The notes beneath the pieces are model-generated. The model saw only the letters and a list, made by a program, of their open reading frames with translations. It was not told where the DNA came from and did no database searches. From positions 71,955 through 135,954 of the forward strand of contig CAZTCT010000001.1 of NCBI GenBank assembly GCA_964612415.1: a DNA stretch of 64,000 nucleotides, read 5' to 3'. A program made the position numbers and the translations under genes. Each line of letters begins with the position of its first letter. Within the stretch, counting starts at the first letter, position 1. This document shows, piece after piece, positions 4,462 to 26,879 of this stretch. Source of the DNA: an uncultured Candidatus Saccharibacteria bacterium. GTDB taxonomy: Bacteria; Patescibacteriota; Minisyncoccia; Phycocordibacterales; CAYRGE01.

Positions 4462-4709
4462 ATTAATAAATGTTTATATATTTCTATATATAAAATATTT
4501 ATTATTACTATTATATGTGTTAATAAGTTGAAAACTTAAAAAAACCTTTATTTTACTGATTAAAAAACTATTTTTAAAAAGAAGAAGTTGTGAATAATGT
4601 GTGAAATTAAATAAAAGATTGTGGATAAATATCTCTAAAAATATATCAGCAGTTTTTATAAACAAATTTTTCCACAACTTTTTCATAATAAAACACAGCT
4701 TATTAACAT
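4462..4709. other. putative oriC: AT-rich dnaA-dnaN spacer carrying a DnaA-box cluster
   Basis: The 248-bp spacer is very AT-rich. It holds one perfect DnaA box TGTGGATAA (4620..4628), TGTGAATAA (4589..4597, 1 mismatch) and TTTTCCACA (4668..4676, 1 mismatch on the opposite strand), with long A/T tracts typical of a DNA unwinding element (DUE). Confidence 0.6.
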
Positions 4710-7040: not shown

Positions 7041-7799
7041 ATGGCGCAGCTTTTTTTTACGGCTATTGTGGAGCCCATCTACAATGGCTTTGTTTTTTTC
7101 ATAGATACCCTTCCAGGGGCTAGTGTAGGGTTCTCAATCATAATTGTTACCCTTATTGTAAGGTCTTTACTCCTTCCCTTGTCACACAAAGCGTCTCTTT
7201 CGCAAGTTAAAATGAAGGCCCTTGCCCCTGAGCTTGAGGTCATAAAAAAGAAATATGAGGGCAACAAAGAGGAGCAGGCAAAAAAAACCTTTGAATTGTA
7301 TAAACAGCATAACCTAAACCCTTTCTCAAGCTGCCTCTCAATGGTCGTTCAAATCCCTATCGTTCTAGGGCTTTTCTATGTGTTTTATCGGTATCTTCCA
7401 CAAGGAATAAACCCAGACTTTCTGTATTCATTTGTAACAATGCCCACCGCGCCAAACCTACACTTTCTTGGGGTTTTTGACCTTAGCCAAAAAAGCATAA
7501 TCCTCGCCCTTCTTGCAGCAACAGCGCAATTTTTCCAGCTCAGGTACATGTCGCCAGTTCCACCAAAGCAAGGGGAGAAGAAGGAGAAAAAAGCATTCGC
7601 CGAAGAAATGATGGCAAATATGACAAAACAAATGCGCTATACTCTCCCGGCAATTATCTTCATTGGTGCATATTACACCTCAGCAGCAGTTGCTCTTTAT
7701 TGGACCACAAGCAATATATTCTCATTTGCGCATGAGTGGTATGTAAGAAAAAAGGTTGAGAGAGAAGGAGTTAAAAAAACCGCACACGAGACCCACTAG
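7041..7799 (+). CDS. yidC: membrane protein insertase YidC (short, Gram-positive/CPR type)
   Basis: 252 aa, multi-TM, conserved SLLLPLSHKASLSQVKMKALAPELEVIKKKY...ELYKQHNLNPFSSCL core. Confidence 0.9.
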   Translation: MAQLFFTAIVEPIYNGFVFFIDTLPGASVGFSIIIVTLIVRSLLLPLSHKASLSQVKMKALAPELEVIKKKYEGNKEEQAKKTFELYKQHNLNPFSSCLSMVVQIPIVLGLFYVFYRYLPQGINPDFLYSFVTMPTAPNLHFLGVFDLSQKSIILALLAATAQFFQLRYMSPVPPKQGEKKEKKAFAEEMMANMTKQMRYTLPAIIFIGAYYTSAAVALYWTTSNIFSFAHEWYVRKKVEREGVKKTAHETH

Positions 7800-9073
7800 T
7801 TTTCTGGTTGAGTTGGGTCATTGGAGACTTGAGCAGGATTACCAAACGCCGTTTGGTCTAATAGTACACGCCAGGGGAGCCCGTTTCTTTTATTGACGAA
7901 TGATATTGTAAGGTCATCTGCGTCAAGAGACAGGTTAATTGCGTCCATTGGGTCTCCTTCTTGATCAGAGAGCCCCACAATGCGCGTAGAATCTCCTGTG
8001 TCTGTGTTTATGCGCCACAGAGAGTCTGAAAATGACACCACACCTTGATACCAGTCATCAGGGTATTTTCCTGAAGGGACAGAGTCGGGTATCGCGCAGT
8101 AGATTACACTTGCCTCAACATTGCTCCATGTGCACTTCTCGGGCATGGTAAAGAAGTTAAAAGGAACATCTTGGCTAGATGCAACATCAAAAAGATGCAT
8201 TGTATACCCCGATTCACTTGCAAGGTAAAGTATTTTACTTACGTCCTTGTTCGCGATATCAGTTATACCTGGGACATTTGCGATTTTTCTTGAAAGAGAC
8301 CCAGACGATGCGCTCAAGGTGTACACATGCCCAGTTACCCCACTAGATGGCTTTGTTGAGAGCAAGAGAGTGTTTGTCGATGGCCACGAGACAAGCCATT
8401 CAGTAAACGGAGAAGAGAAAATCTGTCGGCGATTTGTCCCCTCAAAAGAAGAGATATTTCCCACTACACCAGAACTTGTTTTAACGAGATAAAAGAGATT
8501 GTTTCCTTGTGAGGAGAAGCCGACAATATTTTGCGGAAGGAAGACCCCAGATGTTTCTGTACTCGAAGTATCTCCAGCTGCGGGGAGTTTGAGTGCGTAT
8601 GTTTCAATTGTTGCTGTGTCACCATCACCACTTCTGCGGGTTGCCACATATGATGCATCAGACGACCAGACCGCATCTTGTACCCCAGGGATTGTTTCTA
8701 TGGACACCTGGTTCTCCTCTAGTGTAGACATACTTGTCTCGTATACATGACCAAGACCACGCTCTATATAGCGAACATAAGGAGTATCATTGTGAGTATA
8801 TGTTGTAAGGCTGGCTACGGGCACATTGTGTAGCTTGTAGAGAATCGGCTGACGCCCCTGCCCTCCACTGAAAATATCCTCTCCAGAAACCTGCTGATCA
8901 GTGTTTCCTTGCTGATCAGTGTTGGGTTGTTGCCCTTGTCCAAAAAAAGGAAAGAGGCCACTACCCCCTCCTTGCTCGCTTGAGCTTGAAAAAAGCATCC
9001 ATGCGGCTATTGCTCCACCCAAGAGTGCGACCAGAAGTATTATGTATGCCCATTTTTTTGATGATGTATTCAT
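7796..9073 (-). CDS. hypothetical membrane-anchored extracytoplasmic protein (N-terminal TM, Q/G-rich linker, repeat/propeller-like domain)
   Basis: 425 aa. It starts with MNTSSKKWAYIILLVALLGGAIAAWMLF, and a low-complexity GQGQQPNTDQQGNTDQQ linker follows. First gene of the minus-strand T4SS-like block. Confidence 0.6.
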   Translation of the reverse strand: MNTSSKKWAYIILLVALLGGAIAAWMLFSSSSEQGGGSGLFPFFGQGQQPNTDQQGNTDQQVSGEDIFSGGQGRQPILYKLHNVPVASLTTYTHNDTPYVRYIERGLGHVYETSMSTLEENQVSIETIPGVQDAVWSSDASYVATRRSGDGDTATIETYALKLPAAGDTSSTETSGVFLPQNIVGFSSQGNNLFYLVKTSSGVVGNISSFEGTNRRQIFSSPFTEWLVSWPSTNTLLLSTKPSSGVTGHVYTLSASSGSLSRKIANVPGITDIANKDVSKILYLASESGYTMHLFDVASSQDVPFNFFTMPEKCTWSNVEASVIYCAIPDSVPSGKYPDDWYQGVVSFSDSLWRINTDTGDSTRIVGLSDQEGDPMDAINLSLDADDLTISFVNKRNGLPWRVLLDQTAFGNPAQVSNDPTQPEN

Positions 9074-9082
9074 AGTCTGTGT

Positions 9083-9844
9083 CTATGGAGTTACTCGTAA
9101 AGCGCAACCGGTTATAACTTTCTTTGAGGCGTCCTTTGTGTATGTGGCATATGTTGCAGCGCAATTAGCAGGGTCCTCGTGTGAGCAATATGGCAGCACA
9201 TTCTCTGGGGATGTTATTGTCGAATAAGTGAAGCAGTAATCTTTTGATGCAGTATTAGGATGGAAAAAGCTCTCTGGGTGGCATCCAGCAGACAAAGGAC
9301 CACTGGGGAGTTTTTGCCCGCACTCATTGGGACCACCAAAACAAAGAACTGGAGAGCCGCTCGATGCCTGGTAGCAGTAACGTTCTTTGCCGGGGACGTC
9401 CCCGTACTGATTTTGGCCGCTTGCGTTAAGTCCCCCAGGGAGACTGAGCCCCACTGAACCACTCCCCAACTTGCCACCAGCGTCTCCAAACCCCACTAGG
9501 TCTGGGTTGATTGCACTGAGAATGACCCAGGCGCCCAAAGCAAGAATAAGGCCGAACAGCGCGTTCCTGATGCGTTCTTTTGCTGCTCCACGAAGAGACT
9601 CGTTTGCCCCAGAGGCAATGTATTGAAGTCCTGCGACGACAAGCATGACCACAGCGCCAATAGAAGCAATTCCAAGCACAAGAGAGAATATGATACCAAA
9701 GTAGTCAGCGAGGGTCGTTACTTGAGTCGTTCCAAAAATGGGCGCAAGAAGCGTATAAGCAAAGGCACTTTCTGGAAGCAACAATAAGAGTGGTATCCCC
9801 CCCCAACTCAGTACTTTTCCTAAATACTTCCTTCCTTTTTGCAT
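9083..9844 (-). CDS. VirB2/TrbC-like T4SS pilin (CPR-type) with cysteine-rich C-terminal extension
   Basis: It has a signal peptide and then two hydrophobic helices, DYFGIIFSLVLGIASIGAVVMLVVAGLQYIASGANESLRGAAKERIRNALFGLILALGAWVILSAI. This is the pattern of TrbC/VirB2-type pilins. The last ~120 aa contain about 10 Cys. Confidence 0.6.
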   Translation of the reverse strand: MQKGRKYLGKVLSWGGIPLLLLLPESAFAYTLLAPIFGTTQVTTLADYFGIIFSLVLGIASIGAVVMLVVAGLQYIASGANESLRGAAKERIRNALFGLILALGAWVILSAINPDLVGFGDAGGKLGSGSVGLSLPGGLNASGQNQYGDVPGKERYCYQASSGSPVLCFGGPNECGQKLPSGPLSAGCHPESFFHPNTASKDYCFTYSTITSPENVLPYCSHEDPANCAATYATYTKDASKKVITGCALRVTP

Positions 9845-9850
9845 ATATAT

Positions 9851-10993
9851 TTAGAATCCACCAAAAAGTCCTCCTGGGAGCTGAATTTTAAGGCTTGCGG
9901 CAGCAGTCTGCACATTTCTTGAGAGGTTTCCAAAAAGCGCTTGGATATTTCCTGACTCACCTATTGTGATGGTGGTTGATGTAGCGGACGGCAATTGTTT
10001 GCCGTCCATGGACCATTTGAAAGAAAGGTTGTCCATGGAGAAGAAATAAGGCTCCGCCTTCAAAGTAACCTCTGAATCGGGAGCATCAAATGTGCCTGAC
10101 AGCGCCCTTCCATATTCAATTCCAGAAAGCGGACTTGTTTGGTAAAAAAGAACCTTTGGTTGTGTTGGGGGGATGGTAATGGTTCCTTCGGCAACAAGGA
10201 CATTGTCTGTAGAGTAGGCACGAACCTTTATTGGTGCCCCTAAATACAAAGCGGGGCCATCTGCGTAATACACATATTTCCCTAAGCCAGAAGCCTTTTG
10301 GTCAGCGGTATTTCCATGTGACCAGGTATAACCAAGGTTTTCAGGAGCGATCTCCTTTCCATTGCTTGCGGTTAAGTGCGGGATTGCAACAACCCGAATA
10401 ATACTTCCAGGGGAAGCGAGGGCCTTGCCTTTATAAAAGGGAGGAGTATATGTGAGAGCCTCCCACGCAAGTTCTACTGCGGAGGGGTACACTGTCAGTG
10501 TTTTCTCGTATGTTTCACCTGTGGGGGTAGTTACCACAGCTCTAATGGCCGAAATCTCTCCAGAACCACCTGTTTTAAAAGATAGTTCGCGGAGTCCAGG
10601 ACCACGATCAATCAATGTGCCATTTATGTACCAAGAGATATTTGAAATCCCAAGATCGGTACTATAGGAAAAAAGAGAAACCGTTGCATCATTGTTGGGG
10701 CCCGGGTATTCAGGTCTTACATCGATAGTAATTGAATTTTCTGCCGACTGGCGAAGGATTTCTTTCACATTCGGCATTTTTACCGAATTGAGAGCATCAA
10801 GCATTTGCTGTTCTCTTGTGGGGGTATTGTTGAGTATCTCCTGAGGATCTGGGTTTGGGGAGAGAACGGCATCTAGGAAATCAGCATGAGCGACATGAGC
10901 AAGTCCGAAGGAAAAAATAATAACCCAAATAAACCTAAACTTCTTGGCTTGTAAATATGCCATAGTTACTCTCATTATAAAGAAAACCCCCAC
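9851..10993 (-). CDS. secreted hypothetical protein (signal peptide, beta-rich)
   Basis: 380 aa, N-terminal hydrophobic signal FIWVIIFSFGLAHVAHA, no recognisable catalytic motif. Confidence 0.65.
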   Translation of the reverse strand: MGVFFIMRVTMAYLQAKKFRFIWVIIFSFGLAHVAHADFLDAVLSPNPDPQEILNNTPTREQQMLDALNSVKMPNVKEILRQSAENSITIDVRPEYPGPNNDATVSLFSYSTDLGISNISWYINGTLIDRGPGLRELSFKTGGSGEISAIRAVVTTPTGETYEKTLTVYPSAVELAWEALTYTPPFYKGKALASPGSIIRVVAIPHLTASNGKEIAPENLGYTWSHGNTADQKASGLGKYVYYADGPALYLGAPIKVRAYSTDNVLVAEGTITIPPTQPKVLFYQTSPLSGIEYGRALSGTFDAPDSEVTLKAEPYFFSMDNLSFKWSMDGKQLPSATSTTITIGESGNIQALFGNLSRNVQTAAASLKIQLPGGLFGGF

Positions 10994-11016
10994 ATCAAAC
11001 CAGCAAAAAGTGTGAA

Positions 11017-11433
11017 TTATGCACCTGCGAGTGCGGGACTTGTTCCTTGCTTAACACTGCCCTGCCGCTTCTTTTGGGCCTCTCGGACTTCTTTGTTGTG
11101 GAAATGACGTATTACAAAAAGCATAATGGTTTCCATTGGGAGGATGCCCAAAAGAGGAACGAGCTCTATAAATATTGAAAGAGCGACAGTCGCGACGTTC
11201 CGCGTACTGGGGCGTACCCCACCCATAAATAGGTACATTGCTATTATTGAGCCAAAAACAAGATCAGTCCCCCAAGAAAACGCCTCCACAAGAAATCCTG
11301 CCGGGCTAAGCACCGTACTAAAAGTAAGAAGGGCTCCCACGATTTGGCTGAATACATCTGATATATCCAAAACCATCGCCACCAAGACAATAATCCAGAA
11401 GCCAGCGCCTAATTTTTTTTGGTCAGGGGACAT
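11017..11433 (-). CDS. small integral membrane protein, hypothetical
   Basis: 138 aa, 3-4 predicted TM helices, basic C-terminal tail. Confidence 0.55.
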   Translation of the reverse strand: MSPDQKKLGAGFWIIVLVAMVLDISDVFSQIVGALLTFSTVLSPAGFLVEAFSWGTDLVFGSIIAMYLFMGGVRPSTRNVATVALSIFIELVPLLGILPMETIMLFVIRHFHNKEVREAQKKRQGSVKQGTSPALAGA

Positions 11434-11436
11434 ATT

Positions 11437-13263
11437 TTATACTGGACCAGATCCTTCACTTGCAGCCAATTCATCCTTGGCCTTTTTGATCGCCAAGAGT
11501 TGCGACGGGTCTGAGGTGATGATCTGGTCCTCTGTGTACGAGGCGATAACCTTGATTGCTACACGCTTGAGGCCGGCAAAAAAGATGCCCTCCCCCACAT
11601 CAGATTCAAGAAGAAGATATTTTTCTTCCTCTGTAAGGTTGAAAGTTTTTTGCACAAGATCAATGGTCGTCGGCGATTGCTTAAGGAGCATTTGCATTGA
11701 TGAGTTTGTCAAAATAGGTACTCCATAAGGGGAGCGCAAAAAGTCGCCCACATCTTGTGTGATGGTTGAAAGGCCAAGGTAGTATTTTCTTCCTCGCTTC
11801 GCGAGACTGAGGAGGAAAGAGGCAGTGTCTTCAGACTTCATCATCCACCATGCCTCATCTACCACAAGAAGGCGTTTGCGAAGATTTTTTCTAATCGCGC
11901 TCCATATATGGTGTGTGATGATGTACATTGCTACGGGCTTCAACTCATCTTCCATGTCACGGATAGAGAAAACAACGAATTTTTTAGAAATATCAACATT
12001 AGAAGGCTGATTCATAAAGCCTGCCCATGTTCCTTTTGTGTATTTAGAAAGCTTCTGAACCAATGAATCAGCCCCTTCCATTCCAGATAAGACAAGCTCA
12101 AAGTCTGACAAAAGAGGAGCTTCTACTGATGAAAAGTCTGAATCTGCGGTGATATCTTTGAGGGCATATGTTTCTGTAATAGCACGGTCAATAATCGCGT
12201 CTTCTTCTGCAGAGAGTCCGCCAAGCATGATACGAAAGAGACCAACAAGATTAATGATCTGTGATCGTAGTACGTCTGCGGGAGACTCGTCTTCGCGAGG
12301 AGCGGGGAGATCAAATGGGTTGATGTGATTCTCTGAGGTGAGGGAAATATTGAAATATCTTCCTCCAGTGGCTTCCGCGAGATACTCATATTCCCGCTCT
12401 GGGTCAATAACAATAACATCAATATCGAACATGAGACTTCGCAAGATCTCAAGCTTTGTGTTGTATGACTTACCAGAACCAGATCGTGCAAACGTTACCG
12501 AATTGTAGTTTGGGAGAGAGAAGCGGTCAAAAAGGACCAGTGAAGCGTTGTGTCGGTTGATGCCATAGAGAATTCCTTTGTCGGAGGTGAGGTCAAAAGA
12601 CACAAACGGGAAGATGCTTGAAAGAGGAGATGTGTTCAACTTGTTATGTATAGCGAGGTCGTCATTGCAAGCTGGGAGCATACTGCGAAGACCTTCTTCC
12701 TGCTGGAAAATGGCGGGGCGGACATACACAAGGCGAGATTCTAGTAGAGATTGAATCTCGGACTCAAGCTTCTTGAGGTCTTCTTCAGAGTCTCCGTATA
12801 TTGAAATATAAAGACCTACATCAAAGATCTTTTCTTGTGCCTGCATAAGACTATCGCGCAAGTCTTCTAGGTCTTGGTACGCGGTTTCAAGCATTGGGTC
12901 ACGTACGAATCCTTTCCTCTCGCGCTCAGTGATCTGGCTGCTGACCTCGGCTACCTTTTTTTGAAATTTCTTCAATATCTGCTCTGTGTCTATCGGGTGA
13001 ACAAAGATTGATACATCAAATACTTTGTCTAGATTGATAATGGGAGCAAACCAACTTGCGGTAAGAACGCGAGGGTATGAGGTGACAAAAAATGTTCGCA
13101 TTATCTTCTCCCCCATCTGGATATCTTTTGGGGATACCTGAAGAGCGGATGGTGCGATAACATCTTCAAGCTCAATGTCTGCCTCGCCGTAAAGATCTTC
13201 TGGAAGTATCGGCATGACACTTTTTTCGTCGGCCCGCTTTTGCAATTTGTCAGATAAAGCCAT
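11437..13263 (-). CDS. VirB4/TraE-family T4SS ATPase, C-terminal ATPase portion
   Basis: 608 aa, Walker A ARSGSGKSYNTK, Walker B LLVVDEAWWMM. Its N-terminal region (IAPSALQVSPKDIQMGEKIMRTFFVTSYPRVLTASWFAPIINLD) matches the middle of Gram-positive TraE/VirB4 proteins. Confidence 0.8.
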   Translation of the reverse strand: MALSDKLQKRADEKSVMPILPEDLYGEADIELEDVIAPSALQVSPKDIQMGEKIMRTFFVTSYPRVLTASWFAPIINLDKVFDVSIFVHPIDTEQILKKFQKKVAEVSSQITERERKGFVRDPMLETAYQDLEDLRDSLMQAQEKIFDVGLYISIYGDSEEDLKKLESEIQSLLESRLVYVRPAIFQQEEGLRSMLPACNDDLAIHNKLNTSPLSSIFPFVSFDLTSDKGILYGINRHNASLVLFDRFSLPNYNSVTFARSGSGKSYNTKLEILRSLMFDIDVIVIDPEREYEYLAEATGGRYFNISLTSENHINPFDLPAPREDESPADVLRSQIINLVGLFRIMLGGLSAEEDAIIDRAITETYALKDITADSDFSSVEAPLLSDFELVLSGMEGADSLVQKLSKYTKGTWAGFMNQPSNVDISKKFVVFSIRDMEDELKPVAMYIITHHIWSAIRKNLRKRLLVVDEAWWMMKSEDTASFLLSLAKRGRKYYLGLSTITQDVGDFLRSPYGVPILTNSSMQMLLKQSPTTIDLVQKTFNLTEEEKYLLLESDVGEGIFFAGLKRVAIKVIASYTEDQIITSDPSQLLAIKKAKDELAASEGSGPV

Positions 13264-13265
13264 AA

Positions 13266-13976
13266 TTAGTCGAATTTTTTCACAGGGTTAACAACTTCAG
13301 GAGGATTAAGGAATTTATAGAAAAGTTCAACCACCTCCTCTGTTCCAAGAGGGACCACGCGAATGCCTGTGCGGGCAAGACCTTGCTTCACCACATTCGC
13401 TCTTTGCTCAAGCTGTGAGCGGGCTTCTTCAAAGGCCTGTACATCAAGAGAGGATTTCTTTGAGCCCTCTCCCCCTTGCTTCTGTACAGGGAGTTTTTTT
13501 GAGGGGGTGCCCTTTATCCCACCAAGGAGTTGATCAAAGATACCGCTTGCATTTGCGAGAGCTTTCTTCTGTTGAGAGAAGACGGACTTTGGTGTGTAGG
13601 GCACAACAATAAAGAACATTTTTGTCATAATATTTGTTTGCTCTGTCACGCTCCGAACGAAATCAATATATTCTTGGATCTGAATACGCATGAGATCATT
13701 CATCTCTGTTTTGAATCTGGATTCTAGTGTTGCCAAATAGGGCCTAATATCCAATCTTCTGGATTGAACGAGGATTTGAAGTGAGTAATCAAGCGAATTC
13801 AAAAAGTTTTGGAACTGTGCAAGAATGGCCCCTTGTTCCTGTTCCGATTTGAGTGCAAAGTTGAGCGACGAAGCCATCAAAACAAGGCGCATAGACCCGT
13901 CTTTCATAATGAGAACCCCGTCACGAACCTCTTTTACAGGGACGAATTTTTGGGATGATTGTGATTTAACCGGCAT
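13266..13976 (-). CDS. VirB4/TraE N-terminal domain encoded as a separate ORF
   Basis: 236 aa. KEVRDGVLIMKDGSMRLVLMASSLNFALKSEQEQ...MFFIVVPYT and ...GLARTGIRVVPLGTEEVVELFYKFLNP match the N-terminal domain of TraE/VirB4. The stop TAA lies 2 nt before the ATG of the ATPase ORF, which is in another frame. Confidence 0.7.
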   Translation of the reverse strand: MPVKSQSSQKFVPVKEVRDGVLIMKDGSMRLVLMASSLNFALKSEQEQGAILAQFQNFLNSLDYSLQILVQSRRLDIRPYLATLESRFKTEMNDLMRIQIQEYIDFVRSVTEQTNIMTKMFFIVVPYTPKSVFSQQKKALANASGIFDQLLGGIKGTPSKKLPVQKQGGEGSKKSSLDVQAFEEARSQLEQRANVVKQGLARTGIRVVPLGTEEVVELFYKFLNPPEVVNPVKKFD

Positions 13977-14415
13977 GATGTTTTGATTCCTCTGGTGGGT
14001 TATCCGGGTCTATTACTTCGATGTTTGTGGAAAGGCCAGTCAATTTATTTTCCGATACAACCGGAACATTAAATGAAGGGGGTGTTTCTGGGCGAGAGAT
14101 GGTAAGGTCTCTGCCCGTCTCAATTTTCTTCTTCTCCTTCTTCCATGTATAAAGGCGGGAGTGAGAGTAGAATCTAAAAGCTGACTCAAGAATCCCCGCG
14201 AATGACTTTCCAAATCTTTGCTTGGGGTAGAAGACAAGGGCCCACGTAAGTACCCCGATCGGAATAATAAGCAGTACTGCAATAAAGTGCGGCAGGATTC
14301 TCCATAAGAGGAAAATGAGTCCCCCACCACCAGCGAGGAACACAAACTGCACAACAGAAAAAGATCCGAATATTTTATCCTCTACATCTATGTACTGAGG
14401 AACACGGAAGTCCAT
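13966..14415 (-). CDS. VirB3/PrgI-like small membrane protein
   Basis: 149 aa. DVEDKIFGSFSVVQFVFLAGGGGLIFLLW plus a second TM. It is a small two-TM protein immediately upstream of VirB4, as in Gram-positive T4SS operons. Confidence 0.5.
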   Translation of the reverse strand: MDFRVPQYIDVEDKIFGSFSVVQFVFLAGGGGLIFLLWRILPHFIAVLLIIPIGVLTWALVFYPKQRFGKSFAGILESAFRFYSHSRLYTWKKEKKKIETGRDLTISRPETPPSFNVPVVSENKLTGLSTNIEVIDPDNPPEESKHHAG

Positions 14416-14475
14416 TGAAAATATTATACCTCACTCAAGCTGTCTTGATAAAGAACAACCGTAGTTTGTGTGGAT

Positions 14476-15282
14476 TTATTCAAGCGGCTCCCGGTAAGGG
14501 TCTGTTCGCGGAGATGAAGAGGAACCCTTTTCTTGTTGCTGAGACCCTCCGACAGTGCGCTGGAGTTTCTCCTCGAATGCATTTTTGGGGAAACGAATAT
14601 TCTCCGGTGCTGGCTCACTGTCAGACGGCCCAGTCTTTCCGGAAGAGATAATTTGCGGACGAGGAGAGCCTGGAAGATTTTCAGGTGGTCGTGCGGGAGC
14701 CTTGATTGTTGGTTGAGGTATCTCGGGGCGCTCCATTTTTACCGGTGGGGTCATCATTGGAACTGGTGGAAGTCCGGATTTTGCGCGTGCAAGATCTTTT
14801 TGGAAGGTCTTTGAAGGACCCGAAAGAGAAGCTTGAGACGCTGATGGAGCAGCCTGGGGTGGTTGAGGTACTTTTGGTGGAGTAGGAACGGAAGGTTTTG
14901 GCTGCTGTGTTGGCGCAACAGGGGGCTTCCCTTGAGATGCTGCTGGGGCAGACGTCTTTATCGCACTGAGCAAAGGTCCTGACACGTGGTACATCTCTTT
15001 AATAGATGACTCTACACCAGAAACAATATCGCTTATTATTGCACGTGCTAAAGAGGTAGCTTTTTCCGCAGAAATACCAGACGTGGTCAGCGCATCGAGA
15101 AACTTCCCTGGAGGTAGATCTCCAATGAGCAATTTTGTAGTTGCATCCTCAACTTCCAAGGCCTGCAGGTCTGTTATGTGCATCTCATCAGCAAGGGTAA
15201 AGATTGAAACAACGAGATCGTCATTTTTAAGGAGAAGCTTGATATCCGGAGCTAGCCCTTTAATTTTTGCTTTTATGTCCAT
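14476..15282 (-). CDS. hypothetical proline-rich protein
   Basis: 268 aa, folded N-terminal ~110 aa followed by a long P/Q/S-rich low-complexity region, no TM. Confidence 0.55.
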   Translation of the reverse strand: MDIKAKIKGLAPDIKLLLKNDDLVVSIFTLADEMHITDLQALEVEDATTKLLIGDLPPGKFLDALTTSGISAEKATSLARAIISDIVSGVESSIKEMYHVSGPLLSAIKTSAPAASQGKPPVAPTQQPKPSVPTPPKVPQPPQAAPSASQASLSGPSKTFQKDLARAKSGLPPVPMMTPPVKMERPEIPQPTIKAPARPPENLPGSPRPQIISSGKTGPSDSEPAPENIRFPKNAFEEKLQRTVGGSQQQEKGSSSSPRTDPYREPLE

Positions 15283-15284
15283 AT

Positions 15285-17192
15285 TTATACATCCATTGTA
15301 GCGGCAAAGTCAGCAGGGTTTGAAGACTTCGACTTGTCCTCTCCACCGCCAGATTTTTCAGAAGACTTGTCTCCACCACCCTCTTCTTCCTCAATGGCCT
15401 CCTTAACCGTATCGCGGATGGATTTTTCTTTCTTTGCAAGCTTTTGAGCAGCAAGGCGCTTAGCCATCCATCGGCTACGAGGCCAAGTTAGCCCTTGTCC
15501 GTTCTCGCTAAAGAGCTTGTTTCTTGTCCCTGGGATTACAGGAGCCTCCTTCAAGCGGTCAGCAAACACGTCAGTTCCTGTGCGGTACTGATCTTCCATA
15601 ATTCCCCCTTTGCCCTTTTTCTGTACCACGTAACCATCTTTATCCAGAAGGCGAGCCTCTTGCCCCGCAGCGATTGTCTTTGTGGTGATAACTTCTTTGC
15701 CATCTTTGTCATACGTGCGGTATTTATACTCCATCTCCTTGGTGAGAATTTCGTTTCGCGCATTTCCAAATTTATCCTTCCCGAGGCGCTTGCCCTGCTC
15801 TTCATACATCTTCGCATCTTGCTCCCTAGCCTTTACAAAGCCGCCCTGACCACGAGTTTTGCCGTATCCGCCCACACCCTTAACGCCACGGAAATCATAC
15901 GAAGCACTCGACAACCCTTGTGCTTTGCGCTCCGCCCATGCACCAAAGTTTGAACGTTCCCCAAAGCCTTTCATCCAATTGCTGTTTGCAGCTGCGGCAA
16001 AGCCTCGTCCAGCTGTATTTCGCAAAATCATACCTCCAGCCGTTCCGTAAGCGGCGCCCATGCCGATCTTTGCCCACTTCGTAGAGCTTGAGGCAAGGTT
16101 GCCCGCGATGCTTTTTGCCGCAACGATGGCTCCAATAAGCAGGCCAAGGATGAGAATATATGAAAAGATCGGCGCGAGATTGGTGGCTGTTGCCTGCCCA
16201 GTTATAGCTGTCGAAATAGCGCTTCCAATTGAACCACCCAATCCTCCGAGTACGGCACCAATACTGTTGTTGCGCGCGATTTCTGCAACGAGGTATATGA
16301 AGAACATGAATACCGGTGCAAAGAAAGCGTGACTCATCAGAGAACCCCACCATCTTGAGGCATGCCCACGGAGGCCAGGAAGTGCCGCCGCAACGAAAGC
16401 AAGGGGGGATAGAACCATCAGGAATATAATCGCAATAGTTCGCAGAATGAACATGATCGCTCCAGAAAGGAAGACAAATGTTGCCACAAGCATGGCAACG
16501 GCGCCAAAAATGTAGGCAATCGCGCGGTTTGTATTTGATAGGCCAGTGACATCAAAGGTGTTTGCTGACCCTTGTGCAGATGATGTTGTTTGAAGTTGGA
16601 ATGCTTCCATGAAGACCCCGGAGAGGCTATTTACAGTAGCGCCGTTTATCTGTGCTTGCGAGGCTGTGTTCCAGAAGTACACAGTGAATACATTGGCGAC
16701 ATCAACGATGACCTTTGTGAAGAAGAGACTGAAGTTCACGAAGAGCGCTGCAATGATAATCGTTGCGATATAGCGTTTATAGTTACCAGCGTTCAATATC
16801 GTCATAATCGCGATATAAATAAGGCCAAAGAGGAAGAACATGTTTGCGAAATCGCGCACCACATCCCAGACAGTATTGATGGCAGTAATGCTATTGTAGG
16901 TGCTCGAGCTGATGGAAGTTTGTATTGAGATATCAAGCAAATATCCAGCAACGCTCAAAATCCATGCGGTAATGTGAAATACAAACCCAGCGATCCATTC
17001 AAGAATATTCCCAAAAACAAAATCAGCTCCTCCTGCAAGTGTCCCCCAAAAGGCATCCCAAGAGGAAGATCCTTCTGCGGCAAAAGCTTGGATTGGCGCA
17101 GCAAAAAACAGTATGGAGGCAAAAAGAAATCCGAGCAGTCGCTTTGCCTTGGTGAGCGCCCTTGTACTTTTTTGATAAAAAGAAAACATCAT
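15285..17192 (-). CDS. VirB6/TrbL-like polytopic membrane protein with charged C-terminal tail
   Basis: 635 aa, signal peptide plus at least 7 TM helices in the first 400 aa, and a K/E/G-rich cytoplasmic tail. Adjacent to VirB4/VirB3-like genes. Confidence 0.55.
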   Translation of the reverse strand: MMFSFYQKSTRALTKAKRLLGFLFASILFFAAPIQAFAAEGSSSWDAFWGTLAGGADFVFGNILEWIAGFVFHITAWILSVAGYLLDISIQTSISSSTYNSITAINTVWDVVRDFANMFFLFGLIYIAIMTILNAGNYKRYIATIIIAALFVNFSLFFTKVIVDVANVFTVYFWNTASQAQINGATVNSLSGVFMEAFQLQTTSSAQGSANTFDVTGLSNTNRAIAYIFGAVAMLVATFVFLSGAIMFILRTIAIIFLMVLSPLAFVAAALPGLRGHASRWWGSLMSHAFFAPVFMFFIYLVAEIARNNSIGAVLGGLGGSIGSAISTAITGQATATNLAPIFSYILILGLLIGAIVAAKSIAGNLASSSTKWAKIGMGAAYGTAGGMILRNTAGRGFAAAANSNWMKGFGERSNFGAWAERKAQGLSSASYDFRGVKGVGGYGKTRGQGGFVKAREQDAKMYEEQGKRLGKDKFGNARNEILTKEMEYKYRTYDKDGKEVITTKTIAAGQEARLLDKDGYVVQKKGKGGIMEDQYRTGTDVFADRLKEAPVIPGTRNKLFSENGQGLTWPRSRWMAKRLAAQKLAKKEKSIRDTVKEAIEEEEGGGDKSSEKSGGGEDKSKSSNPADFAATMDV

Positions 17193-17195
17193 AAG

Positions 17196-18119
17196 CTAAA
17201 AGAGGTCGTTTATTGAATCAACCACAATGGTAGAAACAAAAGCACCAAGCATTTCGCCAAGCTCGTCAATGTTGGTGATGTTTGTAAGCTTAGAGCCAAT
17301 AGATGCATTTAGCTGGTAGTTGATAACGGCTCCAGGGGTTTTGATATTGCCATTGGCGTCTTTTGTGGACTGCGCTCCATTGCCATTATCAGCATCTTGG
17401 GCAGCATTTCCAATGGCGGCTGCCTGACTTGCGGTATTGGCACGCTGCTGGGTGGAGATTTTCTGAATAGGATTGTCCCCTTGAATCATGGCAACATTCC
17501 ATGCATCCCACCCTCCTACTGCAAATTGTCCGGACAAAAATGCTCCTGGCGCATTGCCGGTCACACCATTAAGCTTACAAGTCTGTGCCTTTGCTGCGGC
17601 GTCTCGATCCGCCTTGCTTGAATTTTCAATACCAATCTTGAGGCTTGTCTTGAAATCCCCAAAAGCACTTGGGTCTCCGGCGTAAAAATCACAAATATCA
17701 AGGTCTAAAATATCCTGTCCGTATGCAAGAGCTTCCTTCTTCGCCTCATCAAGATAGTGTTGTGCGAAGTTGCGAATATATGCTGGGCGGTCGCTGAATT
17801 GTCCCTCGGCAACATTTATCATGTCATCCACCGCCCTATTAAGGAGGTTTGTTTTAAGTGCCCATGCTGCAGGGTCAAGAACGTACTCTTTAATATAGCC
17901 TGCTGTTGAGTTCGCAGAAATAATAGCTTGAATCGCCTGGTCTACCTGCGCGAGGGCTCGCTCAATGAGCTGTGTTACGAGGTTTGAACAGTTGGCGCAA
18001 AACACAGCCCCTCCAGCTTGAGCCTTCTCAGGGAAAACCCCCATCATCACGATAACTGCAAAAACAAGAACAATTCCCTTGCGGAGAAAAGCGAGGATAT
18101 TTTTATTAAGGTGCAGCAT
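17196..18119 (-). CDS. secreted hypothetical protein of the T4SS-like cluster
   Basis: 307 aa, signal peptide IVLVFAVIVMMGVFPEKAQA, Ala/Asn/Gly-rich C-terminus. Confidence 0.6.
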   Translation of the reverse strand: MLHLNKNILAFLRKGIVLVFAVIVMMGVFPEKAQAGGAVFCANCSNLVTQLIERALAQVDQAIQAIISANSTAGYIKEYVLDPAAWALKTNLLNRAVDDMINVAEGQFSDRPAYIRNFAQHYLDEAKKEALAYGQDILDLDICDFYAGDPSAFGDFKTSLKIGIENSSKADRDAAAKAQTCKLNGVTGNAPGAFLSGQFAVGGWDAWNVAMIQGDNPIQKISTQQRANTASQAAAIGNAAQDADNGNGAQSTKDANGNIKTPGAVINYQLNASIGSKLTNITNIDELGEMLGAFVSTIVVDSINDLF

Positions 18120-19056
18120 AATGATTTGTTGCTGTGTTTACAACGGCACCTTTATTGCTAATGTACGTATCTATTGAGGCCATACTAGTGTGGATCTTAT
18201 TTAAAGTAGAAAGATAGGCCTGAAGGGCAGCGATACCTTCAAGAGGGTCTTCGACAATATTCTTTGTAAGGCTAAGGTATCGAGCCGCATTCCAAGATGA
18301 GTTGAGGAGTTCCAGATGATACTGAGCGAGGTTTGATGGCACCTCTAAGGCAAGTCCATCCTTTATTGCCTCAGCATAGAGGCCTATTGTCGAGTCGAGC
18401 TTCGGTAGCGATGAACCATCTTGACTCTCAATAACATTAATAACCAGGGCTACTTCATCAAAAGTGACTTTTTGTCCTTGCTTTACCACAAGATCAATCA
18501 AGTTATTTGTATAAGAAACTAGGCTTGCAAGACTGTTGTCGCTCGTAATATTGATATCATGTGCGGTGTAATGCTCCTGGAATTTAAAGGTGCTTGACAG
18601 CTCATTATTTGCCACAGCCTTCAATGTGTTTGGGTCAAGAGATCCGGTGTCCGTGTAATCCTGGAGAGCTAAATAAGAGAGTATCTCTGTGAGAGAGGGG
18701 TTTGTTTCAAGAGATGTATCTGACGCGGTAGTGGAATCTGCGAGTACCACAGAAGAAGGAAGACCTGTTTTCTTTGCGAGTATATAAGGCTCCTGTCCAT
18801 CTACGATACCATTGCCGTCAGTGTCAGGGCTGTTAGGGTTTGTACCCCAAAGAGACTCTTCCCAGTCTTTGAGCCCATCTCCGTCAGAATCTTCAAGTCC
18901 TGCTTTTGCGCGATCAAGCATCGCAGTCTCTGATGAACGATCAAAGGAGACGGAAGTGTTGCCTGAAGAATACTTCAGCACAACAAGAATTCCTACACTT
19001 GCCATGCTCAATGCAGCAAAAACCCAAAGCGCCCATGTGCGAGATCTGCTCTGCAT
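18106..19056 (-). CDS. membrane-anchored protein with Asp-rich calcium-binding-like repeat
   Basis: 316 aa, N-terminal TM, DSDGDGLKDWEESLWGTNPNSPDTDGNGIVDG resembles thrombospondin-type-3/dockerin-like Ca-binding loops. Confidence 0.6.
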   Translation of the reverse strand: MQSRSRTWALWVFAALSMASVGILVVLKYSSGNTSVSFDRSSETAMLDRAKAGLEDSDGDGLKDWEESLWGTNPNSPDTDGNGIVDGQEPYILAKKTGLPSSVVLADSTTASDTSLETNPSLTEILSYLALQDYTDTGSLDPNTLKAVANNELSSTFKFQEHYTAHDINITSDNSLASLVSYTNNLIDLVVKQGQKVTFDEVALVINVIESQDGSSLPKLDSTIGLYAEAIKDGLALEVPSNLAQYHLELLNSSWNAARYLSLTKNIVEDPLEGIAALQAYLSTLNKIHTSMASIDTYISNKGAVVNTATNHYAAP

Positions 19057-19123
19057 ATCTTGGGCTCATTATATCAAGGGGAAAGAGCTAAAGTTTTATT
19101 TTCTTGTGGATAAGAATGCGGTC

Positions 19124-26462: not shown

Positions 26463-26879
26463 CTACTCGTTGATATGTGCTTTACAAGTATCAGCGGCAG
26501 GGTTTGCTTCTAGACGATCTTCCTCAATCTGACCTCCACATACTTTGCAGGTGCCATAGGTGCCTGCGTCCATGCGTGCGAGTGCCTCTTCGATATCCTT
26601 GTGACGGTTCTCTATCTCTACTTCGACGGCCGAGCGTTCCTCAAAGTCGGTGATAGTGTCTGCTCGTTCATTCTCGTCCGCTTGAAGGACGTTCATGTCT
26701 TCGGGAGTTGGCTCCCAATCAGCAGGGTTTTCAGGATTGACGCGACCAAGCCCTTTGAGCTCTTCCTCAAGGCGGGCCTTTTCTGCAAGAAGCTTATCTT
26801 TAAATTTTTGTGTATCTGTCATGCGGGTATGATAGCAAATACTTTCGTAAATCGGCAAGCTATATCTCAAATACCTCAC
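26463..26879 (-). CDS. DksA/TraR-family C4 zinc-finger protein
   Basis: 138 aa, coiled-coil N-terminus and C-terminal CKVCGGQIEEDRL...CKAH zinc finger. Confidence 0.7.
   Translation of the reverse strand: MRYLRYSLPIYESICYHTRMTDTQKFKDKLLAEKARLEEELKGLGRVNPENPADWEPTPEDMNVLQADENERADTITDFEERSAVEVEIENRHKDIEEALARMDAGTYGTCKVCGGQIEEDRLEANPAADTCKAHINE

What the first reader, a model, noticed from the sequence alone, without database searches (positions are those of the whole stretch)
7796..19056. Origin-proximal T4SS-like cluster (pilin, split VirB4/TraE, VirB3-like, VirB6-like, five secreted or membrane proteins) with no relaxase, coupling protein or VirB11
Twelve co-directional minus-strand genes start 1 kb from yidC/oriC. 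Three have recognisable T4SS cores: a Gram-positive-type VirB4/TraE, a PrgI/VirB3-like gene and a TrbL/VirB6-like gene. One is a VirB2/TrbC-type pilin of the kind seen in CPR genomes. The rest are signal-peptide or TM proteins without recognisable motifs (a Ca-binding-repeat protein, a proline-rich protein, a beta-rich protein). No DNA-processing genes (relaxase, VirD4) occur in the 64 kb. The machine therefore looks like a non-conjugative secretion or uptake apparatus whose substrates and function are unknown. This is the best candidate in the window for an uncharacterised system.
Basis: partly seen in the sequence, partly recalled or inferred. Interest (0 to 1): 0.7.

Follow-up and report, generated by a model that had tools for sequence, protein, structure and literature searches.

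The report
Origin-linked Patescibacteria type IV secretion locus
This is a real, intact copy of the relaxase-less, pilin-bearing type IV secretion system that nearly all ultrasmall Patescibacteria (CPR) carry next to their replication origin; it was described in 2023-2025, and what it transports is still unknown.

Summary
Window 7796-19056 carries 11 (not 12) tightly packed minus-strand genes. They include a Gram-positive-type VirB4 ATPase split into a TrsD-like N-domain gene and an ATPase gene, a PrgI/VirB3 gene, a VirB2-type pilin and a polytopic VirB6-like protein. The VirB6-like protein fails Pfam on its own sequence, but 5 of 41 orthologues hit TrbL. Pfam found no relaxase, coupling protein or VirB11 in any of the 58 ORFs scanned (all of 91 aa or more). 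The locus is not a mobile element: the same gene order recurs in most of 80 Paceibacteria genomes, and VirB4 is more conserved than DnaA.

This is the published Patescibacteria-clade T4SS. Wang 2023 showed it is essential in a Saccharibacterium. Quinonero-Coronel 2025 surveyed about 2,400 genomes and reported the missing relaxase, the TrsD, VirB3, VirB6 and VirB2 parts, and the position near dnaA, rnpA and ksgA.

Small additions from this work:
- A DnaA box sits in the operon promoter and recurs in 14 of 40 related loci.
- The pilin carries a hypervariable C-terminal extension.
- Six accessory families are conserved by position or by sequence: Ig-like, TolB-like, Ca-binding and three of unknown type.

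The most likely mechanism is a VirB4-driven platform that builds a pilin filament or conduit to the host cell. The direction of transport and the cargo are unresolved.

The parts
19057..19123 (-). Operon promoter region. It holds an exact DnaA box TTATCCACA (19105-19113) 31 nt upstream of an extended -10 element TGATATAAT (19068-19076), and lies about 50 nt upstream of the first gene's ATG.
   Evidence: Sequence read directly and box search. DnaA-like boxes occur upstream of the orthologous first gene in 14 of 40 related loci: 15 hits against 2.5+-1.7 in shuffles.
18106..19056 (-). g11, the first gene. An N-terminally anchored or secreted protein with a TSP3-type Ca-binding repeat (residues 56-77) followed by a helical domain.
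   Evidence: TSP3_bac E=3.8e-5, 23.9 bits, below the cutoff of 25. Family profile against PDB hits the Bap Ca-binding surface protein 7c7u at E=7.9e-5. Detected in the same position by tblastn in 36 of 80 loci.
17196..18119 (-). g10, a secreted, mostly helical protein of unknown fold with conserved Cys, Trp and Gly positions. This is a short form (307 aa) of a family that is usually about 530 aa.
   Evidence: The family alignment has invariant residues. No robust family hit. AF2 gave pLDDT 43. Typical members add a confident C-terminal beta-sandwich that is absent here.
15285..17192 (-). g9, a VirB6/TrbL/PrgH-like polytopic membrane protein with a long charged C-terminal tail.
   Evidence: At least 6 hydrophobic segments. 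5 of 41 orthologues hit PF04610 TrbL, best E=6.5e-7. hhalign best pairs are PrgH (E=7.6e-4, 163 columns) and TrwI. The window sequence itself gets no Pfam hit.
14476..15282 (-). g8, a soluble protein with a conserved N-terminal helical domain, a Pro-rich linker and a C-terminal DPYRE motif. It is probably a cytoplasmic partner of PrgI/VirB4.
   Evidence: No TM segment; 25% Pro over residues 100-230. An iterative HMM unites 61 of the 64 sequences in this slot (63 ORFs from related loci plus the window's g8). One locus (L006) has it fused to PrgI in a single ORF.
13966..14415 (-). PrgI/VirB3-like protein, a two-TM membrane anchor for VirB4.
   Evidence: PF12666 E=9.2e-8, 33 bits against a cutoff of 27. 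Present in 77 of 80 loci.
13266..13976 (-). TrsD-like protein, the detached N-terminal domain of VirB4.
   Evidence: NCBIfam TrsD E=1.3e-7; matches VirB4 models at their residues 4-137. Aligns to residues 21-128 of an unsplit C. perfringens VirB4. Present in 80 of 80 loci.
11437..13263 (-). VirB4 ATPase core of the monoderm CD1110/MPF_FATA type. Walker A (ARSGSGKS) and Walker B (LLVVDE) motifs are intact.
   Evidence: NF045971 E=2.6e-110, above cutoff. 75-98% identical to thousands of Patescibacteria proteins. 28-35% identical to Firmicutes and Actinobacteria plasmid VirB4. Motifs checked.
11017..11433 (-). g4, a small 3-TM membrane protein of unknown role. A gene in this slot is present in about half of related loci.
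   Evidence: Hydropathy. An iterative HMM unites 37 of the 39 sequences in this slot (38 ORFs from related loci plus the window's g4). Absent in the closest long relative, L089.
9851..10993 (-). g3, an N-terminally anchored or secreted protein built of tandem Ig-like beta-sandwich domains. It is a candidate wall-spanning or surface part.
   Evidence: 9 of 41 orthologues hit BiPBP_C; others hit Ig_3 and PKD_3. PDB profile hits include Hoc, R28 and decoration proteins. Present in 75 of 80 loci.
9083..9844 (-). VirB2-type pilin. Signal peptide plus two-TM pilin domain (about residues 30-119), followed by a lineage-specific C-terminal extension of about 135 aa containing 8 Cys.
   Evidence: PF18895 E=4.1e-10 over residues 43-112. 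Only residues 30-119 align to the 60 orthologues, whose lengths range from 124 to 615 aa.
7796..9073 (-). g1, the last gene. An N-terminally anchored protein with a probable TolB-like beta-propeller and a conserved C-terminal Cys/Trp motif region.
   Evidence: Family profile against PDB: the two top hits are TolB, at E=0.035 and 0.29. Invariant residues K313, C314, W316, C326, W341, Y342. Present in 64 of 80 loci.
23834..24874 (+). LysM-LysM-M23 peptidoglycan peptidase. A possible stand-in for the missing VirB1 wall hydrolase; membership in the system is uncertain.
   Evidence: Pfam LysM plus Peptidase_M23. Found next to uvrD in 9 loci and in L089. PMC12102498 reports M23/LysM-containing VirB1-like proteins associated with virB4 in Paceibacteria.
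4589..4676 (.). Context: a cluster of three DnaA boxes in the dnaA-dnaN spacer, the probable oriC, about 3.1 kb from the end of the T4SS operon.
   Evidence: The same spacer carries DnaA boxes in 43 of 50 related loci.

Best explanation
This is the Paceibacteria version of the chromosomal, vertically inherited Patescibacteria-clade type IV secretion system. That system derives from monoderm (MPF_FATA) conjugation machinery but is no longer conjugative.

**Shown by sequence.** One operon encodes:
- a VirB4 ATPase split into a TrsD-like N-domain and a catalytic core;
- its PrgI/VirB3 membrane anchor;
- a VirB6-like polytopic channel protein;
- a VirB2-type pilin;
- six further envelope or accessory proteins whose positions are conserved across the class.

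**Inferred from established T4SS knowledge** (VirB4, VirB3 and VirB6 form the inner-membrane platform that extracts VirB2 pilin from the membrane and polymerises it). The ATPase platform assembles a pilin filament or short conduit through the wall. The variable C-terminal domain of the pilin is displayed on the filament's outside. The Ig-like, TolB-like and Ca-binding secreted proteins form or decorate the wall-spanning and host-contact part. The machine works at the contact between the ultrasmall epibiont and its host cell, and moves cargo without a coupling protein.

**Unresolved.** Whether the cargo is exported (effectors) or imported (host macromolecules) is not known.

**Expression (inferred).** The operon appears to start at its own promoter upstream of g11. 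A DnaA box there suggests control by DnaA, in addition to the origin-proximal gene dosage.
For: **Component assignments:**

**Not mobile, but core chromosomal:**
- The order uvrD-ksgA-g11-g10-VirB6-g8-PrgI-TrsD-VirB4-(g4)-g3-pilin-g1 | yidC-dnaA-dnaN recurs in most of 80 species-level genomes of Yonath-, Kaiser-, Taylor-, Nomura-, Campbell-, Wolfe- and Zambryskibacteria and in L089.
- GC content equals that of the flanks.
- No tRNA or integrase lies at the borders.

**No relaxase, T4CP or VirB11 in 64 kb:**

**Conservation gradient against the closest long relative:** VirB4 83% > DnaA 72% > TrsD 61% > UvrD 59% > PrgI 55%, then a large drop to g1 42%, pilin 37%, g3 33%, g8 30%, VirB6 29%, g11 28% and g10 27%. 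The motor is highly constrained and the exposed parts evolve fast.

**Pilin:** only the N-terminal pilin domain is conserved.

**Promoter:** DnaA box.

**Literature:**
- The homologous locus SEML1_0006-0019 is essential for epibiotic growth, has pilins and lacks a coupling protein and relaxase (PMC10633639).
- A phylum-wide survey found the same parts list and the same dnaA/rnpA/ksgA neighbourhood (PMC12102498).
- T4SS pilins are among the most highly expressed unknown genes of Paceibacterales growing on methanogens (PMC10936435).
Against: - No filament has been seen for any Patescibacteria T4SS.
- A VirB5-type pilus nucleator and a VirB8 homologue were sought and not found.
- The VirB6 call is indirect for this sequence.
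- A T4CP homologue may exist elsewhere in the genome. PMC12102498 finds VirD4-like genes in most Patescibacteria, usually far from virB4. Only 64 kb of a contig of at least 205 kb was visible.
- The DnaA-box link is statistical only: 35% of loci, with one mismatch allowed.
- Both structure predictions were of low confidence for the parts that matter.
Confidence: 0.8

Rival explanations
1. Import machine. The T4SS works like H. pylori ComB or the archaeal Ced system and takes up host DNA or other macromolecules as a source of nucleotides and building blocks for a cell that cannot make them.
For: - The parts list (VirB2, VirB3, VirB4 and VirB6 without VirD4, VirB11 or relaxase) resembles the reduced ComB-type set.
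- The VirB4 gives a weak partial hit to the CedB DNA-import ATPase, E=6e-9.
- The neighbours are DNA-metabolism genes: uvrD adjacent and comM 6 kb away.
- The DnaA box at the promoter would fit coupling to replication.
- PMC11665869 names the T4SS as a candidate nucleotide-acquisition route because ComEC is dispensable but the T4SS is essential. PMC12102498 notes comF, recG and radA next to the T4SS in class ABY1.
Against: - There is no direct evidence for import by any monoderm T4SS.
- The uvrD, ksgA and dnaA neighbours are ordinary origin-proximal housekeeping genes.
- The CedB hit covers only the shared P-loop region.
- This is a sub-hypothesis about direction and is compatible with the main explanation.
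Confidence: 0.2
2. Export machine. The T4SS injects effector proteins, or releases Sec-exported proteins as the pertussis Ptl system does, into or onto the host cell to make it leak or supply nutrients.
For: - T4CP-less protein-secreting T4SSs exist, namely Ptl and Brucella VirB (PMC12857230).
- Several operon products are signal-peptide proteins with adhesion-type folds.
- Wang 2023 and McLean 2020 favour effector delivery (PMC10633639, PMC11665869).
- The exposed components evolve fast, as expected for a host interface.
Against: - No effector candidates or secretion signals were identified.
- No T4CP is available to recruit cytoplasmic substrates.
- The secreted operon proteins are conserved by position like structural parts rather than like variable effectors.
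Confidence: 0.25
3. An ordinary integrated conjugative element, or a decaying remnant of one, whose relaxase and coupling protein lie just outside the window or have been lost.
For: - The VirB4, PrgI and TrsD genes are homologous to those of Firmicutes conjugative plasmids. PrgI directly precedes VirB4 there (pSXP-169_2 and pCF10), whereas in the window PrgI and the VirB4 ATPase gene are separated only by the detached VirB4 N-domain gene.
- Only 7.8 kb of sequence to the left of the cluster was visible, and the rest of the genome was not.
Against: - The same housekeeping flanks recur in dozens of species-level genomes.
- GC content is uniform.
- No integrase, tRNA or repeat borders were found.
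- All ORFs are intact, with tight operon spacing.
- VirB4 is more conserved than DnaA, which is the opposite of decay.
- Relaxases occur in only 103 of 3,035 Patescibacteria genomes (PMC12102498).
Confidence: 0.03
4. Adhesion only. The machine merely builds a VirB2 filament that attaches the cell to its host, and nothing is transported.
For: - The pilin has a hypervariable outward-facing C-terminal domain.
- The accessory proteins have Ig-like and Ca-binding adhesin-type features.
- Pilins are highly expressed in co-culture (PMC10936435).
Against: - The same window already encodes type IV pili for attachment.
- The very strong constraint on VirB4 and the retention of a VirB6 channel protein suggest more than filament assembly.
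- This cannot be separated from the main explanation with sequence data.
Confidence: 0.15

Closest known systems
Patescibacteria-clade T4SS (Quinonero-Coronel et al. 2025, PMC12102498; Southlakia epibionticum SEML1_0006-0019, Wang et al. 2023, PMC10633639)
   Same: - MPF_FATA-type VirB4.
- A separate TrsD-like gene.
- PrgI/VirB3, VirB6-like protein and VirB2-like pilin beside virB4.
- No relaxase or T4CP nearby.
- Chromosomal, next to dnaA, dnaN, rnpA and ksgA, which is the context reported for Paceibacteria.
- VirB4 is 75-98% identical to thousands of Patescibacteria proteins.
   Different: - There is a single pilin gene with a long variable C-terminal extension, not the 6-gene pilin array of S. 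epibionticum.
- No lysozyme or peptidase gene lies directly downstream of virB4; an M23/LysM gene sits 4.8 kb upstream.
- The Paceibacteria-specific accessory families (g1, g3, g8, g10, g11, g4) are not named in the text of the survey read here (sections 12-14).
- An Lnt-like gene is inserted between ksgA and the operon, which is rare (1 of 80 loci).
Conjugative MPF_FATA T4SS of monoderms (pCF10 Prg/Pcf; C. perfringens pSXP-169_2; CD1110-family VirB4)
   Same: - The VirB4 belongs to the CD1110 family and is 28-35% identical.
- In the window the order is PrgI, then the VirB4 N-domain gene, then the ATPase gene. In the plasmids PrgI directly precedes an unsplit VirB4.
- A VirB6 (PrgH)-like protein lies upstream of PrgI.
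- There are no outer-membrane core proteins.
   Different: - No relaxase, MobC, T4CP (PcfC/CD1115), PrgK-type hydrolase, PrgL/VirB8-like protein or LPXTG adhesin.
- VirB4 is split.
- A VirB2 pilin is present, which monoderm systems lack.
- Chromosomal and vertically inherited rather than on a plasmid or ICE.
Gram-negative pilus-forming T4SS (VirB/Trw of R388, MPF_T)
   Same: It has VirB2-type pilin, VirB3, VirB4 and VirB6 homologues, the core needed to extract and polymerise pilin.
   Different: - No VirB5 (hhalign of the g10 family against TrwJ gave probability 0.4%).
- No VirB7/9/10 core, VirB8, VirB11 or VirD4.
- The pilin is about twice the normal size, with an extra C-terminal domain.
DNA-uptake T4SS-like systems (H. 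pylori ComB; archaeal Ced), as discussed in PMC11665869 and PMC12102498
   Same: A relaxase-less, T4CP-less reduced T4SS in an organism that relies on external DNA or nucleotides. The ATPase core gives a weak CedB similarity.
   Different: No ComB7/9/10 or CedA homologues. The direction of transport is untested. In the cultured relative, competence depends on ComEC and T4P, not on the T4SS (PMC10633639).

Membership tests
Patescibacteria-clade T4SS | VirB4 of the monoderm MPF_FATA/CD1110 type that groups with Patescibacteria VirB4 | tested here: met
   NF045971 at 369.9 bits against a cutoff of 325. The top 120 hits are 75-98% identical, and every one that carries an organism name, like the 80 related genome loci, comes from a Patescibacteria/Parcubacteria MAG. 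Identity to monoderm plasmid VirB4 is 28-35%. No formal tree was built.
Patescibacteria-clade T4SS | Separate TrsD-like gene (VirB4 N-domain) adjacent to virB4 | tested here: met
   Present in 80 of 80 related loci.
Patescibacteria-clade T4SS | VirB3/PrgI homologue next to virB4 | tested here: met
   PF12666, 33 bits against a cutoff of 27.
Patescibacteria-clade T4SS | VirB6-like polytopic protein near virB4 | tested here: inconclusive
   The window protein has no TrbL hit at E<=5. 5 of 41 orthologues hit TrbL, best E=6.5e-7. hhalign against PrgH gave E=7.6e-4 at probability 25%, the best of 144 pairs and better than the PrgI positive control.
Patescibacteria-clade T4SS | VirB2-like pilin gene near virB4 | tested here: met
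   PF18895, 40 bits against a cutoff of 26.6.
Patescibacteria-clade T4SS | No relaxase or coupling protein associated with the locus | tested here: met
   None among the ORFs of 91 aa or more scanned in the 64 kb window. The rest of the genome was not visible.
Patescibacteria-clade T4SS | Chromosomal, near dnaA/dnaN/rnpA/ksgA (Paceibacteria context) | tested here: met
   Synteny shown.
Patescibacteria-clade T4SS | Required for growth on the host | not testable with these tools
   Known only for S. epibionticum by Tn-seq (PMC10633639).
Conjugative MPF_FATA T4SS / ICE | Relaxase (with oriT) and VirD4/TcpA-type coupling protein | tested here: not met
   Absent from the window. Present beside PrgI-VirB4 in the comparison plasmids.
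Conjugative MPF_FATA T4SS / ICE | Mobile-element borders and patchy distribution | tested here: not met
   Housekeeping flanks are fixed across about 60 genomes. GC content is uniform. No flanking tRNA or integrase.
Conjugative MPF_FATA T4SS / ICE | VirB1-type hydrolase and VirB8-like (PrgL/TcpC) proteins in the operon | tested here: not met
   No SLT, CHAP or NlpC hit in the operon. hhalign of g3 against PrgL gave probability 1.8%. An M23/LysM peptidase lies outside the operon.
Gram-negative pilus-forming T4SS (MPF_T) | VirB5 pilus-tip or nucleator protein | tested here: not met
   The only hits were weak TrbJ matches (E=0.003 and 0.017; the first is in the window's g10) and a DUF4141 hit in one orthologue. 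hhalign against TrwJ gave probability 0.4%. Power is low because the template was a single sequence.
Gram-negative pilus-forming T4SS (MPF_T) | VirB7/9/10 outer-membrane core and VirB11 | tested here: not met
   No Pfam or NCBIfam hits. The only T2SSE ATPase is PilB of the type IV pilus.
ComB/Ced-type DNA import systems | Demonstrated DNA uptake; ComB7-10 or CedA partners | not testable with these tools
   Only a partial CedB P-loop similarity, E=6e-9 against a cutoff of 700 bits. No partner homologues were detected.

The most novel reading that the evidence does not exclude
The operon is a DnaA-gated, origin-linked host-tapping machine. DnaA binding at the promoter box ties T4SS production to replication initiation. 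The VirB4/VirB6 channel imports host DNA or nucleotides needed for replication. The hypervariable C-terminal domain displayed on the VirB2 pilin sets which host can be tapped.

None of this is excluded by the data. The DnaA-box recurrence and the pilin hypervariability are not mentioned in the parts of the papers read here.
Probability: 0.1. Interest if true: 0.8.

Novelty: already known. Interest (0 to 1): 0.3.

Why it matters
Patescibacteria make up a large share of bacterial diversity and live attached to other microbes. This T4SS is one of the few machines known to be essential for that lifestyle, and its role is described as "completely unknown" (PMC11665869).

The window adds no new kind of system. 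It is a clean, complete Paceibacteria example. The comparative results give concrete handles for experiments in the few cultured Paceibacteria:
- The motor is more conserved than DnaA.
- The exposed parts evolve fast.
- The pilin has a variable C-terminal domain.
- A DnaA box recurs at the operon promoter.
- Six accessory families are defined.

Tried and rejected
1. **g10 as a VirB5/TrbJ-like pilus-tip protein.** Prompted by a weak TrbJ hit and a DUF4141 hit in one orthologue. TrbJ-type hits were confined to single members, at E=0.003 and 0.017. hhalign against R388 TrwJ gave probability 0.4%. Dropped.
2. **g3 as the missing VirB8, and g4 as PrgF.** hhalign against pCF10 PrgL and PrgF gave nothing. 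g3 is Ig-like instead.
3. **Structure prediction.** The window g10 with a 16-sequence alignment gave pLDDT 43. A typical family member gave pLDDT 53, and only the C-terminal beta-sandwich was confident, a domain the window copy lacks. No fold search was run because the relevant domain was unreliable.
4. **Homologue search with g10.** A single-sequence search found only itself. The profile search found 16 proteins, too few for a good model.
5. **Apparent 99.5% hhalign match between the g8 family and the PrgI family.** This was traced to one fused g8-PrgI ORF in L006 and is not homology.
6. **Extending beyond the window to look for a relaxase or T4CP.** The PBP gene product is not on record. The dnaA look-up returned only a 2.6-kb contig.
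7. **Naming the organism.** An exact-match look-up returned no source names. The taxon is inferred from relatives.
8. **RNA elements and tRNA borders.** None near the cluster.
9. **Promoter and terminator scans inside the operon.** The promoter-like count is close to what shuffles give (29 vs 23.1±4.9). Terminator-like sites are about twice the shuffle expectation (37 vs 18.9±4.3), but most lie inside coding sequence and none was taken as an operon boundary.

Full report
**What is in the sequence.**
Between 7796 and 19056 the minus strand carries 11 ORFs of 138-635 aa. Spacings run from a 14-nt overlap to a 60-nt gap, so they look like one operon. I label them g11 (18106-19056, first) to g1 (7796-9073, last).

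The co-directional run continues upstream through an Lnt-like gene (19124-20878), ksgA and uvrD/pcrA. Downstream, g1 overlaps the 3' end of yidC by 4 nt. Beyond that lie yidD, rnpA, dnaA (4710-6071) and dnaN. Three DnaA boxes cluster in the dnaA-dnaN spacer at 4589-4676. The same spacer carries such boxes in 43 of 50 related loci. The probable oriC is therefore about 3 kb from the end of the operon.

**Checking the component calls.**
- g5 (11437-13263) is a VirB4 ATPase of the monoderm type. NCBIfam NF045971 'VirB4-like conjugal transfer ATPase, CD1110 family' scores E=2.6e-110 and 369.9 bits against a cutoff of 325. Pfam P-loop_TraG, AAA_10 and DUF87 also hit. The Walker A and B motifs are intact.
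- g6 (13266-13976) matches only the first 120-140 positions of VirB4 models and the TrsD family.
- g6 and g5 tile residues 21-128 and 213-754 of an unsplit 783-aa Clostridium perfringens VirB4. The 'split VirB4' description is correct.
- g7 is a PrgI/VirB3 protein (PF12666, above cutoff).
- g2 is a T4SS_pilin (PF18895, above cutoff).
- g9, the putative VirB6, is the weak point. The window protein gets no TrbL hit even at E<=5. However, 5 of its 41 orthologues hit PF04610 (best E=6.5e-7). In a 9 x 16 hhalign screen against pCF10 and R388 proteins, its family gave the top pair (PrgH, E=7.6e-4) and the third pair (TrwI). It beat the known-true PrgI control.

**The unassigned genes.**
- g11 has a TSP3-type Ca-binding repeat, just below the Pfam cutoff. 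Its family profile hits the Ca-binding Bap protein in PDB at E=7.9e-5.
- g3 is built of Ig-like domains.
- g1 weakly resembles the TolB beta-propeller.
- g8 is soluble and Pro-rich with a conserved C-terminal DPYRE motif.
- g4 is a small 3-TM protein.
- g10 is a secreted, mostly helical protein of unknown fold.

**Absence of DNA-processing genes.**
The 58 ORFs scanned against Pfam cover every ORF of 91 aa or more except the two cut by the window ends. None is a relaxase, a VirD4/TcpA coupling protein or a VirB11. The only T2SSE-family ATPase is PilB (MshEN + T2SSE). It lies next to PilC and N-methylated pilins at 59-64 kb, which is a type IV pilus locus.

**It is core chromosome, not a mobile element.**
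A scan of one genome per species found 561 relatives of the VirB4. I examined the best 80 loci. They come from Yonath-, Kaiser-, Taylor-, Nomura-, Campbell-, Wolfe- and Zambryskibacteria, that is, class Paceibacteria.

The order uvrD-ksgA-g11-g10-g9-[g8 slot]-PrgI-TrsD-VirB4-[g4 slot]-g3-pilin-g1 | yidC-dnaA-dnaN recurs in the great majority, limited mainly by contig ends. The fast-evolving g8 and g4 slots are filled by true family members. Iterative HMMs unite 61 of the 64 sequences in the g8 slot and 37 of the 39 in the g4 slot, counting the window's own proteins.

GC content matches the flanks. There is no tRNA or integrase at the borders.

Identity to the closest relative with a long contig (L089):

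| Protein | Identity |
|---|---|
| VirB4 | 83% |
| DnaA | 72% |
| TrsD | 61% |
| UvrD | 59% |
| PrgI | 55% |
| g1 | 42% |
| pilin | 37% (N-terminal domain only) |
| g3 | 33% |
| g8 | 30% |
| g9 | 29% |
| g11 | 28% |
| g10 | 27% |

The motor is under stronger constraint than the replication initiator. The exposed parts evolve faster than any housekeeping neighbour.

**Comparison with what is known.**
The literature search shows that this system has been described.
- Wang et al. 2023 (PMC10633639) found by Tn-seq that the homologous locus SEML1_0006-0019 is essential for epibiotic growth of Southlakia epibionticum. They noted its Gram-positive-like composition, its pilins and its lack of a coupling protein and relaxase.
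- Quinonero-Coronel et al. 2025 (PMC12102498) surveyed 3,035 Patescibacteria genomes. They found 2,425 VirB4s forming a monophyletic clade nested within MPF_FATA.
- The same survey found TrsD as the most abundant partner, VirB3/PrgI, VirB6 and VirB2-like pilins near virB4, and relaxases in only 103 genomes.
- For Paceibacteria it found virB4 next to dnaA, dnaN, rnpA and ksgA, and proposed a gene-dosage effect.
- A 2025 T4SS review (PMC12857230) and a 2024 perspective (PMC11665869) state that the role is unknown. Effector export or uptake from the host are the speculations they offer.
- In Paceibacterales growing on methanogens, T4SS pilins are among the most highly expressed unknown genes (PMC10936435).

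The window's locus meets every testable defining feature of this family, with the VirB6 call indirect. It fails the defining features of conjugative MPF_FATA systems. The closest plasmid VirB4s (28-35% identity) sit beside MobC, a relaxase and VirD4.

**What this analysis adds.**
1. The operon has its own promoter-like region at 19057-19123. An exact DnaA box (19105-19113) lies 31 nt upstream of an extended -10 element.
2. DnaA-like boxes (one mismatch or fewer) occur within 200 nt upstream of the g11 orthologue in 14 of 40 loci. That is 15 hits against 2.5+-1.7 in shuffles, with a maximum of 7 in 200 shuffles. The density is 1.7 per kb, against 0-0.6 per kb upstream of every other cluster gene.
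3. This suggests DnaA-dependent control in addition to gene dosage. It remains a statistical lead, not a demonstrated site.
4. Only residues 30-119 of the 253-aa pilin are conserved. The C-terminal part (about 135 aa with 8 Cys here) aligns to none of 60 orthologues, whose total lengths range from 124 to 615 aa. In known VirB2/TraA filaments the termini face outward (own knowledge), so this domain would decorate the filament surface. That is an inference.
5. The accessory families g1, g3, g8, g10, g11 and g4 are defined and given tentative fold classes.
6. One genome fuses g8 to PrgI, which links g8 to the membrane platform.

**Mechanism.**
*Shown:* the parts list, operon structure, conservation pattern and lack of DNA-processing genes.

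*Inferred from general T4SS biology:* VirB4 (here TrsD plus the ATPase core) is anchored by PrgI/VirB3 and works with VirB6. Together they extract the VirB2-type pilin from the membrane and polymerise it into a filament or short conduit through the wall. The secreted Ig-like, propeller-like and Ca-binding proteins form or decorate the wall-spanning and host-contact part. Cargo moves without a coupling protein.

*Not resolved:* the direction of transport and the cargo. I give roughly 0.25 to effector export and 0.2 to import of host macromolecules. Pure adhesion and ICE-remnant readings are less likely.

**Dead ends.**
- The VirB5 idea for g10, the VirB8 idea for g3 and the PrgF idea for g4 found no support.
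- Both AlphaFold runs were of low confidence where it mattered.
- Attempts to see beyond the window failed, so a distant T4CP cannot be excluded. The survey finds such genes in most Patescibacteria, usually far from virB4.

**Verdict.**
The system is already known. Interest is modest (0.3). The biology is important and unsolved, but this locus is a typical member, and the new details are leads rather than discoveries.

Noticed in passing
window 19105-19113 (also L022, L061 and 12 other loci upstream of the g11 orthologue): An exact DnaA box sits at the promoter of the T4SS operon. DnaA-like boxes are about 6-fold over shuffle expectation upstream of the first T4SS gene across related genomes, but not upstream of the other cluster genes.
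   Followed up: partly
window 19124-20878: An Lnt-like gene (LNT_N + CN_hydrolase, apolipoprotein N-acyltransferase type) is inserted between ksgA and the T4SS operon. It is found at this position in only 1 of 80 related loci and is absent in the closest relative, L089. An N-acyltransferase for lipoproteins is unexpected in a monoderm CPR cell.
   Followed up: partly
window 9083-9844 (residues ~120-253): The VirB2-type pilin carries a C-terminal extension of about 135 aa with 8 Cys that has no alignable counterpart in 60 orthologues. Pilin lengths range from 124 to 615 aa across Paceibacteria.
   Followed up: partly
window 11437-13263 versus 4710-6071: The VirB4 ATPase is more conserved than DnaA between this genome and its relatives: 83% against 72% to L089, and a median of 76% against 60% across the 80 loci. 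Those loci were chosen by VirB4 similarity, so the second figure is biased upward.
   Followed up: yes
window 41258-49884: A complete V/A-type ATPase operon (subunits I, K/c, E, C, F, A, B, D) rather than an F-type ATP synthase.
   Followed up: no
window 59096-64000: A type IV pilus locus: PilB (MshEN + T2SSE), PilC (T2SSF) and at least two N-methylated pilin-like ORFs. The same 64 kb therefore encodes both surface-filament systems implicated in the epibiotic lifestyle.
   Followed up: no
L006:950-2230: In one related genome the g8-like N-terminal domain and PrgI/VirB3 are a single 426-aa ORF. This is either a gene fusion linking the two proteins or an assembly frameshift.
   Followed up: partly
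window 14476-15282 (residues 261-265) and orthologues: The Pro-rich g8 family ends in a conserved DPYRE motif at the extreme C-terminus. It looks like a docking peptide; its partner is unknown.
   Followed up: no
window 17196-18119; P0122; L089:5589-6440: The g10 family is usually about 530 aa, with a confidently predicted C-terminal beta-sandwich (pLDDT 80-90). The window copy (307 aa) and its closest relative (283 aa) are short forms that lack it.
   Followed up: partly
window 23834-24874: A LysM-LysM-M23 peptidase lies divergent from uvrD and recurs at this position in related loci. It is a candidate functional substitute for the missing VirB1 hydrolase.
   Followed up: no
window 26860-29002: Two adjacent minus-strand ORFs (316 and 393 aa) between a DksA/TraR-type zinc-finger gene and pnp have no Pfam hit at all.
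   Followed up: no
window 38555-38583: A second pair of DnaA-box-like 9-mers, one of them exact, lies 20 nt apart about 360-390 nt downstream of the tRNA-Gly gene (38127-38200), far from dnaA.
   Followed up: no
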